Shown here piece by piece: positions 50,592-52,337 of a DNA stretch of 64,000 bases (the first letter of the stretch is position 1; every line of letters starts with the position of its first letter). The position numbers and the translations under genes are program-made. The notes under the pieces are model-generated. The model ran no database searches. It was not told the DNA's origin and saw only the letters and a program-made list of their open reading frames with translations. Source of the DNA: Candidatus Hodarchaeota archaeon (GTDB lineage Archaea > Asgardarchaeota > Lokiarchaeia > Sigyniarchaeales > SOKP01); assembly GCA_048886685.1 (NCBI GenBank), contig JBHLKM010000016.1, positions 1 through 64,000 of the forward strand, read 5' to 3'.

Positions 50592-51801
50592 CTATTTTTG
50601 CTTTGAAAGGTATCTAATTTTTACGAGTAAATCTCGAAGTTCCATTTTATCATTGTCAGATGTTATGTATTTCTTTTTTACTCCTTCTGAAAGCGGGATT
50701 GTTTCAATTTTATTTCCTTGGAGAGATACCATATTCCCAAATTTACCTTCTAAAACAAGTTTCATTGCTGCTAATCCAAACCTTAATCCTAAAATCCTAT
50801 CAAATGAATTAGGTGGTCCGGCACGCATGGTGTGACCAAGAACTACACTTCGACATTCGAAATCTACTCCATTTTTCTCAAATTCTTGTTTTAAATCGTC
50901 TCTTAAGTTTAATTCTTCAACAATTATTTGGGACATATTCAATTTTACTAATAATGGATTACCAAATGTATCCTTAGGTAATTTATCAATTGTTTCTTTA
51001 GATATGGTTTTAAAATCTCGGTTAAGAGATTCTAAATTCGGATAGGCTCCCTCTGATGTAGCAATTATATGATATTTATAGCCAGCATTAACTCTTTTTT
51101 TCAAAACATCAATAACATCTTTTTCTAAGTCAAATGGCGTTTCTGGGATTAATATTATATCTGCTCCAGCAGATATTCCGCTATACATTGTTAAAAAACC
51201 TGCATCTCTGCCCATTACTTCTACAACAAATACTCTTTGATGCGATCGAGCCGTGGTTGTAAGATTATCCATCGCGTTAGAGGCTAGTTGTGTCGAACTC
51301 CAGAAGCCAAACGTATAATGTGTTCCCTGCAGGTCATTATCAATAGTTTTTGGCACTCCTACTACTTTAGCATCAGCGAATCTATACAAATTATCAGCCA
51401 CTCCAAGAGTATCGTGTTCAGTTTAAAACAGAAGTTATTCTAAAACTCCACCGATAGCAATTAGAGCATCTATTCCTAATTCTTCAAACTTTTTGGTTAA
51501 TTCTTTAGCTTTTTCCTCTTTTGCACTTACTCCCTTAAATGGATTCGTCCTACTTGTATATAGGATAGTCCCCCCCACAGTATGTAGGTCATCATGTTCT
51601 GCTATATTAAGTGGAATTGTTTGGTTTTCCACAAATCCTTTCCATCCCTTAAGGATGCCAACACATTCAATCCCAGTATCATAAGCTTTAAGCATGATTC
51701 CATAAAGTACGGAATTTAAACCGGGACAGTGTACGACAGTTAAGGAAACCTTTAGACATGGCTCCGCCGCCCGTGAGAATTCCAACTTTTTTAATTGCTA
51801 T
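50592..51801 (-). CDS. pfkA: PPi-type 6-phosphofructokinase, three exons (51801-51762, 51730-51446, 51415-50592), 382 aa after splicing, probable ATA start
   Basis: Joined exons read IAIKKVGILTGGGDCPGLN...GGTILYTSR...IGGDDTLG...PKTIDND...EVMGR...LGH; GGDD plus PKTIDND indicate PPi dependence. Confidence 0.88.
51416..51445 (-). other. Putative BHB-type mRNA intron 2 of pfk (30 nt)
   Basis: Insert TTTTAGAATAACTTCTGTTTTAAACTGAAC splits GGA G^AC GAT and carries in-frame TAA; 9-bp inner hairpin; exon-exon helix TATCG/CGATA. Confidence 0.8.
51731..51761 (-). other. Putative BHB-type mRNA intron 1 of pfk (31 nt)
   Basis: Insert CCATGTCTAAAGGTTTCCTTAACTGTCGTAC splits GGA G^AC TGT and shifts the frame; central helix GCGG/TCGT with bulges AG^C and AC^A. 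Confidence 0.8.
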
Positions 51802-51935: not shown

Positions 51936-52337
51936 CTATTCATTTTCATTATTTCCTAACCATTCTTTAAATGTTTTTTGAGGGATCATTTCCTGTATTG
52001 ATATACCTGTCTGTTCTTTAAATTGCTTTTCTATCTCCCTCGTCCATAGCTTCTTATCTATCTGATCATTCAGCTTTATTAAGACTATACCTCCTCTTGC
52101 ATCAAAAGCATCACGTTTAAATGAATCTCTTTGCCTTGTTTTGTATTTACTATGCCAATACATCTCCCAAAACTCATATAATACCTCATATTTCTTTCCA
52201 TTTATCAAAACACTGTTATATCCATCTACATGAGATCTCGGGTGAACTTTTTTATTCACTCCCTTAATTTTTATTTGATTTCCTACAATATTGCGTAAAT
52301 GTGTATGATCAAATTTTACGCCAAATATTTTTTCCAA
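51936..52337 (-). CDS. Small Vsr/PD-(D/E)xK-like endonuclease domain protein
   Basis: HVDGY...LYEFWEMYWH...RDSFKR...IVLIKL pattern resembling DUF559/Vsr-like nucleases. Confidence 0.55.
   Translation of the reverse strand: MEKIFGVKFDHTHLRNIVGNQIKIKGVNKKVHPRSHVDGYNSVLINGKKYEVLYEFWEMYWHSKYKTRQRDSFKRDAFDARGGIVLIKLNDQIDKKLWTREIEKQFKEQTGISIQEMIPQKTFKEWLGNNENE

What the first reader, a model, noticed from the sequence alone, without database searches (positions are those of the whole stretch)
51416..51445. pfk intron 2: 30-nt stop-containing insert in the GGDD motif
Minus strand reads TATCG-GTGG-AG^T-TTTAGAATA-ACTTC-TGTTTTAAA-CTGA-AC^A-CGATA. It has a perfect 5-bp exon-exon helix, a 9-bp inner stem with a 5-nt loop and two 3-nt bulges. 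The central helix GUGG/CUGA is relaxed (3 of 4 pairs, two wobble). It is in frame but holds two TAA stops, so it cannot be translated through. Splicing restores GGDDT, the motif that determines phosphoryl-donor specificity.
Basis: partly seen in the sequence, partly recalled or inferred. Interest (0 to 1): 0.85.

Follow-up and report, generated by a model that had tools for sequence, protein, structure and literature searches.

The report
tRNA-type mini-intron splitting Asgard phosphofructokinase
A 30-base insert breaks the active-site motif of the only phosphofructokinase gene of this Asgard (Loki) archaeon; it is conserved and shaped like an intron cut by the tRNA-splicing enzymes, so the messenger RNA very probably has to be spliced, which the papers I could search show for the coding part of only one other archaeal gene, and a neighbouring homing-type nuclease gene may be how such inserts spread.

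Summary
Observation confirmed. Removing exactly 51445-51416 (minus strand) is the only register that restores GGDDT; with intron 1 (51731-51761) removed, a 382-aa PPi-type PFK results. The genome is Promethearchaeota. The same 30-nt insert sits at the same phase in 13 of 81 related pfk genes. Carriers are scattered on the tree and show normal purifying selection. They fix six synonymous flank sites exactly across the predicted structure, a haplotype seen in 0 of 68 intron-less genes. The genome encodes an (alpha-beta)2 EndA with the broad-specificity loop, and RtcB. Caveats: the motif is relaxed (first central pair never forms), the cleavable fold is not the predicted lowest-energy fold, and no RNA run was listed, so splicing is inferred (about 0.87). 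The cut splits the first (Mg-binding) Asp, not the specificity Asp. Added: the upstream 133-aa ORF is a remnant of a Vsr/EDxHD-like nuclease whose close relatives abut pfk; free-standing LAGLIDADG genes lie beside such inserts (8/18 loci against 0/267 control windows). Collaborative homing is a plausible route of spread (about 0.5). This scan reported the same class, a pfk case and the nuclease link before on other DNA.

The parts
51416..51445 (-). pfk intron 2, 30 nt, relaxed BHB type, splits the first Asp codon of GGDD after its first base; two in-frame TAA
51452..51456 (-). 5' arm of the exon-exon helix; synonymous sites fixed in carriers
51410..51414 (-). 3' arm of the exon-exon helix
51448..51451 (-). 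exon strand of the central helix (pairs with 51421-51418; first pair open in 20 of 20 variants)
51422..51444 (-). inner 9-bp intron hairpin with a variable 5-nt loop
   Evidence: 98% of cells paired, one two-sided change A-U to G-C
51731..51761 (-). pfk intron 1, 31 nt, frameshifting, splits the Asp codon of GGGDC at the same phase
   Evidence: 15 of 78 informative loci; 31-32 nt
51762..51801 (-). pfk exon 1 (40 nt); probable non-ATG start (ATA) 6 nt behind a GGTGA ribosome-binding site at 51812-51808
   Evidence: the start is inferred
51446..51730 (-). pfk exon 2 (285 nt)
50592..51415 (-). pfk exon 3 (824 nt), holds PKTIDND
51936..52337 (-). 133-aa C-terminal remnant of a 600-741-aa zinc-finger plus Vsr/EDxHD-like nuclease; lacks the N-terminal domains and the first conserved helix, probably inactive

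Best explanation
The insert is an ORF-less archaeal intron of the relaxed bulge-helix-bulge class in a working pfk mRNA. In the transcript the exon-exon helix and the intron hairpin bring the two splice sites together (shown as a conserved pairing potential). The (alpha-beta)2 splicing endonuclease, whose L1/CSL loop tolerates imperfect motifs, binds, selects the register with 3-nt bulges and cuts after the second base of each bulge (inferred from known EndA chemistry). RtcB joins the exons, rebuilding the GAC codon of the Mg-binding Asp (inferred). With intron 1 also removed, the mRNA encodes a 382-aa PPi-type phosphofructokinase; unspliced RNA gives no enzyme. The intron persists because only exact loss is tolerated at an invariant codon. 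As a second, weaker step (about 0.5), it spreads between genomes with a free-standing homing-type nuclease beside pfk that would cut intron-less alleles; the window keeps only a remnant of that gene.
For: Unique register restoring GGDD, a motif present in 102 of 102 full-length relatives. Only full PFK-A gene of a 100%-complete genome. Carriers show pN/pS 0.16 (exon 2) and 0.13 (exon 3), equal to non-carriers (0.16, 0.12), and no extra stops. Third positions -11, -8, -2, +1, +4 are fixed in 13 of 13 carriers and -5 in 12 of 13, while -14 and +7 just outside the structure vary; 0 of 68 intron-less genes have the haplotype; 19 of 19 metagenome hits with carrier flanks hold the insert. In 20 distinct variants the outer helix is 100% and the inner stem 98% paired, the last two central pairs hold in 20 of 20, and changes fall in loop and bulges. 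The intron is 28/30 identical between genes whose synonymous sites differ at about 55%. EndA alpha with triad and K44-equivalent, a beta paralogue without the His, and RtcB are present. All 8 distinct frame-breaking inserts found against 2 Mb of a congener are 29-34-nt hairpins, 7 scoring 3-4 central pairs. For spread: carriers need at least 11 changes and are rejected as one clade (AU p 9e-9); five contigs picked by nuclease sequence alone all abut the pfk 3' end, and the one long enough carries both introns; LAGLIDADG neighbourhoods hold such inserts in 8 of 18 informative loci against 0 of 267 random windows.
Against: No spliced RNA seen. The motif is not a strict BHB: the first central pair is open in all 20 variants and three variants keep only two central pairs. 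The cleavable fold is never the predicted minimum; a slipped register that buries the 5' cut is preferred in 17 of 20 variants, and it scores almost as well on the alignment (91.7% against 92.8%), though its pairs 13-40 and 15-38 break in 3 and 10 variants. Two-sided changes are few (2 pairs) and come from related sequences. For homing: most carriers have no nuclease nearby (3 of 17 against 1 of 58 for LAGLIDADG, p 0.034); one intron-less pfk keeps a LAGLIDADG remnant (L115); the fold match to I-Bth0305I is modest (Z 5.8); mosaic tracts in pfk do not line up cleanly with the nuclease; an old gain with repeated losses also fits the patchy tree.
Confidence: 0.87

Rival explanations
1. The insert is a disabling insertion (small repeat or mobile-element footprint) and pfk is a pseudogene in carriers.
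For: Most relatives lack it (68 of 81); patchy distribution; a 232-nt orphan copy of exon 2 plus the insert lies on C5.
Against: Purifying selection and absence of other lesions equal those of intact genes across carriers with dS near or above 1; no target duplication; no other copy in the genome apart from the pfk fragment; fixed synonymous flanks; only full PFK-A gene.
Confidence: 0.04
2. The insert stays in the mRNA and is skipped by ribosomal bypassing or stop read-through.
For: A Gly codon followed by a stop and a hairpin recalls T4 gene 60 (own knowledge); length is a multiple of three; one variant (L221) has only one stop.
Against: The Asp codon is split, so landing in frame would put His, Tyr, Asn or Asp at an invariant Asp depending on the carrier; read-through would add 10 residues inside the active-site motif; an exon-exon helix is not needed for bypassing; intron 1 (31-32 nt) shifts the frame in two different ways.
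Confidence: 0.02
3. It is an intron, but removed by another route (a different nuclease, guide-assisted refolding, or DNA-level excision), because the RNA alone prefers a non-cleavable register.
For: Predicted probability of the last central pair is 0.02 or less in all 20 variants.
Against: Both splice sites fall at the canonical EndA spacing relative to two stable helices; CC variants break the slipped register but keep the BHB one; no intron-less copy with carrier flanks was found in DNA; relaxed motifs are known substrates of loop-bearing EndA (PMC5829648, PMC12397907).
Confidence: 0.06
4. On spread only: the intron was gained once in the ancestor of these genera and lost many times by ordinary recombination with intron-less alleles; neighbouring nucleases are passengers.
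For: Intron subtype ending in CC is confined to one pfk clade; four intron-less genes (L072, L079, L086, L130) keep the carrier-type 5' flank; recombination tracts occur in pfk without introns.
Against: Close intron-less sisters differ from carriers at most diagnostic flank sites; nuclease genes are strongly enriched beside such inserts in five different genes.
Confidence: 0.4

Closest known systems
cbf5 pre-mRNA intron of Desulfurococcales and Sulfolobales (Watanabe 2002, Yoshinari 2006; Yokobori 2009, PMC2738675)
   Same: Short ORF-less insert in coding sequence, between first and second base of an essential Asp codon, often with a relaxed motif, host with hetero-oligomeric EndA, patchy among relatives.
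   Different: Other phylum (Promethearchaeota); central-metabolism gene; two introns in one gene; at least six such inserts in this genome; linked to free-standing nuclease genes; splicing not yet shown here.
Non-canonical tRNA introns of Asgard archaea (bioRxiv 10.64898/2026.10.13.758758)
   Same: Same size range, motif and enzyme; repeated gains on the tree.
   Different: That study covers tRNA genes only (no occurrence of 'mRNA'), other Asgard classes, and found no general route of arrival.
Haloferax HVO_1309 5' UTR BHB intron (PMC7714728)
   Same: mRNA substrate of the splicing endonuclease.
   Different: Lies outside the coding sequence; different enzyme architecture.
Collaborative homing: F-CphI with the psbA group I intron of cyanophage S-PM2 (PMC6083498, PMC2988022)
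   Same: Free-standing nuclease gene next to a conserved gene with an ORF-less intron.
   Different: Here a 30-nt protein-spliced intron in a chromosomal archaeal gene; nucleases are Vsr/EDxHD-like and LAGLIDADG; target and protection untested.
PPi-PFK of Ca. Prometheoarchaeum syntrophicum (PDB 9CIR, 44XA, 44XF)
   Same: Best solved relative of the intact orthologue, E 4e-144, same GGDD and KTID motifs.
   Different: Its GGDD motif is contiguous in the solved chain; no intron 2 pattern was found in genomes of that part of the order.

Membership tests
Archaeal EndA-spliced intron (BHB or relaxed BHB/BHL) | Splice sites after the second base of two 3-nt bulges set four positions apart on opposite strands | tested here: met
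   Register fixed independently by the protein motif coincides with this spacing
Archaeal EndA-spliced intron (BHB or relaxed BHB/BHL) | Flanking intron helix and exon helix | tested here: met
   98% and 100% of cells paired in 20 variants; predicted pair probabilities mostly 0.9 or more
Archaeal EndA-spliced intron (BHB or relaxed BHB/BHL) | Exact removal restores a product under selection | tested here: met
   382-aa frame; pN/pS as in intact genes
Archaeal EndA-spliced intron (BHB or relaxed BHB/BHL) | Host has an EndA type that cuts relaxed motifs, and a ligase | tested here: met
   Alpha subunit with L1/CSL lysine and triad, beta subunit, RtcB; by sequence only
Archaeal EndA-spliced intron (BHB or relaxed BHB/BHL) | Cleavable conformation is populated | tested here: inconclusive
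   Prediction prefers a slipped register; conservation slightly favours the BHB register
Archaeal EndA-spliced intron (BHB or relaxed BHB/BHL) | Spliced RNA or cleavage by EndA observed | not testable with these tools
   No RNA run could be laid on the stretch
Strict hBHBh' intron | Complete 4-bp central helix | tested here: not met
   First pair open in 20 of 20 variants
Group I or group II self-splicing intron | Ribozyme core of hundreds of bases | tested here: not met
   30 nt; no such Rfam match
Collaborative homing unit | Free-standing nuclease gene adjacent to the gene with the ORF-less intron | tested here: met
   Remnant at 51936-52337; full-length relatives tail-to-tail with pfk; fold call modest
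Collaborative homing unit | Intron and nuclease move together between genomes | tested here: inconclusive
   Association and scattered carriers but no clean co-conversion tract
Collaborative homing unit | Nuclease cuts the intron-less site and the intron protects | not testable with these tools
   Needs a cleavage assay
PPi-dependent PFK-A | GGDD plus KTID signature | tested here: met
   activity not assayed

The most novel reading that the evidence does not exclude
Lokiarchaeia carry a mobile class of about 30-nt EndA-spliced mRNA introns at invariant codons of housekeeping genes, spread by free-standing homing nucleases parked beside the target gene. At pfk a LAGLIDADG gene partners intron 1 and a zinc-finger EDxHD-like gene partners intron 2, and the slipped versus cleavable fold could also make splicing a control point for glycolysis.
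Probability: 0.45. Interest if true: 0.9.

Novelty: new variant of a known kind. Interest (0 to 1): 0.77.

Why it matters
In the papers I could search, archaeal coding-sequence splicing rests on cbf5 alone. A conserved intron in a core metabolic gene of the closest archaeal relatives of eukaryotes means mRNA splicing by the tRNA machinery is routine there, and that many Loki genes annotated as fragments (the 265-269-aa PFK entries) are whole. The 54-nt substrate and its 20 natural variants give a direct test of how far EndA tolerates broken motifs. The nuclease link offers a testable answer to how BHB introns arrive, which a 2026 preprint on Asgard tRNA introns names as the central open problem.

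Tried and rejected
RNA evidence: no RNA holder listed; this is no evidence either way. A metagenome pattern allowing gap 0-30 found no joined form with carrier flanks. Five short Logan/ENA contigs with full-length PFK were ordinary intron-less alleles. Rfam gave nothing relevant. The second PFK hit on C5 is a 232-nt fragment, not a spare gene. Alternative splice registers give GGH, GGV or GEH, never GGDG, so a donor-specificity switch was rejected. Pfam and NCBIfam did not name the 133-aa ORF; Foldseek gave no match at E 0.001; the Atlas gave only leads. A script to score this genome's tRNA intron geometry returned no table, so no in-genome tRNA control for the relaxed motif was obtained. Segment-wise nearest neighbours did not show a clean nuclease-linked tract. 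The 30-nt in-frame coding insertion near column 585 in distant relatives is a protein loop, not an intron. Literature searches found no report of Asgard mRNA introns, but most subscription papers are not searched.

Full report
Observation. The minus strand at 51416-51445 holds the insert as described. Of 14 registers of a 30-nt excision only 51445..51416 gives GGDDT; the insert carries two in-frame TAA codons. A second insert at 51731-51761 (31 nt) restores GGGDC. Removing both gives 1149 nt and 382 residues, starting at an ATA codon behind a GGTGA site (inferred; ATA, ATT or ACG starts occur in four other loci). Only 7 of 8.83 million genome positions reach the same geometry score.

Host and gene. 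Relatives are Promethearchaeota. The gene is the only full PFK-A of a 100%-complete genome; the other hit is a 232-nt orphan copy of exon 2 with the unspliced insert on C5. All 102 full-length relatives have GGDD, and the nearest solved relative is the PPi-PFK of Prometheoarchaeum. In GGDD the first Asp binds Mg and the second serves PPi use (bioRxiv 10.64898/2026.03.28.715000). The insert splits the first, so it blocks all activity and does not switch specificity.

Comparative test. The insert is present in 13 of 81 genome loci, always 30 nt at the same phase; a pattern search found it in 21 of 133 family genomes from three genera and in none of 26 genomes of other families searched. Carriers have no further stops and the same pN/pS as intact genes (0.16 and 0.13 against 0.16 and 0.12), which speaks against a pseudogene. 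Five synonymous flank positions are fixed in 13 of 13 carriers and a sixth in 12 of 13; all lie inside the predicted structure, and the next third positions outside it vary. None of 68 intron-less genes has this haplotype, and all 19 metagenome matches to it contain the insert. Carriers are not a clade: at least 11 changes, AU p 9e-9 on a tree built without the junction region. Shared ancestry of the whole gene therefore does not explain the fixed flanks; selection on pairing or short co-conversion does.

Structure. In 20 distinct variants the exon helix is 100% paired and the inner stem 98%, with one A-U to G-C change; the last two central pairs hold in all, the second in 17, the first in none. 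So it is a relaxed motif (one good bulge, a 2-3-bp helix, a 1x4 loop), not a strict BHB. A real weakness: ViennaRNA never ranks the cleavable fold first. In the window it is about 7 kcal/mol above a fold in which the 5' bulge pairs with the intron end, and that slipped register is preferred in 17 of 20 variants. The slipped pairs are less well kept (13-40 broken in 3, 15-38 in 10, 9-44 in 13), so conservation leans to the BHB register, but the enzyme would have to select it.

Machinery. Two EndA paralogues exist. The C18 protein is closest to Aeropyrum EndA alpha, keeps Tyr, His and Lys of the triad and aligns a lysine with K44 of the Crenarchaea-specific loop. The C5 protein lacks the His and fits a beta subunit. 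PMC5829648 reports (alpha-beta)2 EndA with this loop in Asgard archaea and ties the loop to cleavage of relaxed motifs. RtcB is intact on C15. Shown: sequence, conservation, enzymes present. Inferred: cutting and joining. No RNA run was listed.

Context in the genome. Against 2.0 Mb of a congener (1573 matched ORFs), the frame-breaking inserts in conserved coding sequence were five in this genome and three in the congener, all 29-34-nt hairpins; in-frame indels were mostly 12-27 nt and lacked the pattern. This is a lower bound, since shared introns and those near starts are missed.

Possible route of spread. The 133-aa ORF between zpr1 and pfk is the C-terminal remnant of 600-741-aa proteins with zinc fingers. 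A model of the domain ranks the homing endonuclease I-Bth0305I first and Vsr-like nucleases next, at modest scores (Z 5.8, rmsd 4.6 over 91 residues). Five contigs chosen only by nuclease sequence all have the gene tail-to-tail with pfk; the one that reaches the site has both introns, and two show a second pfk fragment on the far side. With L217, L218, L232 and G136 every case where the site is visible carries intron 2, but these are about three lineages and several were picked by the intron. A second family, dual-motif LAGLIDADG, lies upstream of pfk in nine loci that all carry intron 1; in the unselected set it is 3 of 17 carriers against 1 remnant in 58 (p 0.034). Family-wide, 8 of 18 informative LAGLIDADG neighbourhoods hold a mini-insert within 1.5 kb against 0 of 267 random windows of this genome; without pfk loci it is 5 of 13, in four other genes. 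Kin are not independent and the control comes from one genome, so the p-values overstate. This matches collaborative homing as described for F-CphI (PMC6083498), but no target is shown, most carriers lack a nuclease, and recombination tracts in pfk do not track it cleanly. One old gain with many losses remains a fair rival.

Comparison. It works like the cbf5 intron, down to splitting an essential Asp codon after its first base (PMC2738675). A 2020 paper counts cbf5 as the one earlier mRNA case and adds a 5' UTR intron (PMC7714728). A 2026 preprint covers Asgard tRNA introns only and leaves their arrival open. It meets the sequence-level tests of a relaxed EndA intron, fails the strict BHB test and has not met the RNA test. 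Earlier notes of this scan describe the same class in other Asgard genomes, including a pfk case and the nuclease pairing; they are leads, and the numbers above are my own.

Verdict. A real, selected mini-intron in a working gene (0.87 for EndA splicing); a new variant of a known kind; spread by adjacent nucleases about even odds.

Noticed in passing
window:51799-51812 (-): pfk appears to start at ATA behind a GGTGA site; L088 and L097 (ATA), L105 (ATT) and L116 (ACG) show the same kind of non-standard start.
   Followed up: partly
L265 (G000:C5:244014-244245): Orphan 232-nt copy (95%) of pfk exon 2 plus unspliced intron 2 and 13 nt of exon 3 in an intergenic gap; its intron equals that of G008, not the window's.
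   Followed up: partly
G000 C20:41204, C40:3422, C3:215409, C18:88177: Further 29-34-nt frame-breaking BHB-like inserts (mannosidase-like, acyl-CoA-synthetase-like, glycoside-hydrolase-like genes and cdhA; names from motifs, not tested).
   Followed up: partly
L307 (G000:C20:41719-42396) and G000:C16:73771-74637: The genome's two LAGLIDADG matches lie about 500 nt from a mini-intron and beside intron-bearing tRNA genes.
   Followed up: partly
L286, L290, L294, L303, L304: Mini-inserts beside LAGLIDADG genes in an oxidoreductase gamma subunit, a RuBisCO-like gene, EF-2, an acyl-CoA synthetase and a mannosidase-like gene of relatives.
   Followed up: partly
L086, L094, L215, L216, L220, L221, L229: The intron 1 site holds at least two unlike sequence types (31 and 32 nt), which suggests separate gains or strong turnover at one site.
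   Followed up: no
L312:2-64, L317:1-57: A second pfk fragment lies on the far side of the nuclease gene, as if the cassette had displaced the old 3' part.
   Followed up: no
L104 against L217, L218, L232: Exon 3 is 93-95% identical while exon 2 is not: pfk is mosaic through recombination even in an intron-less genome.
   Followed up: partly
G005 (L059 genome) C1:337485, 1121957, 1505070: Three BHB-like frame-breaking inserts absent from G000, one in the DGNRR motif of a prenyltransferase-like gene.
   Followed up: no
G000 C1:221073-221165: ARAGORN calls a selenocysteine tRNA; many other calls look like mis-parsed multi-intron tRNAs.
   Followed up: no
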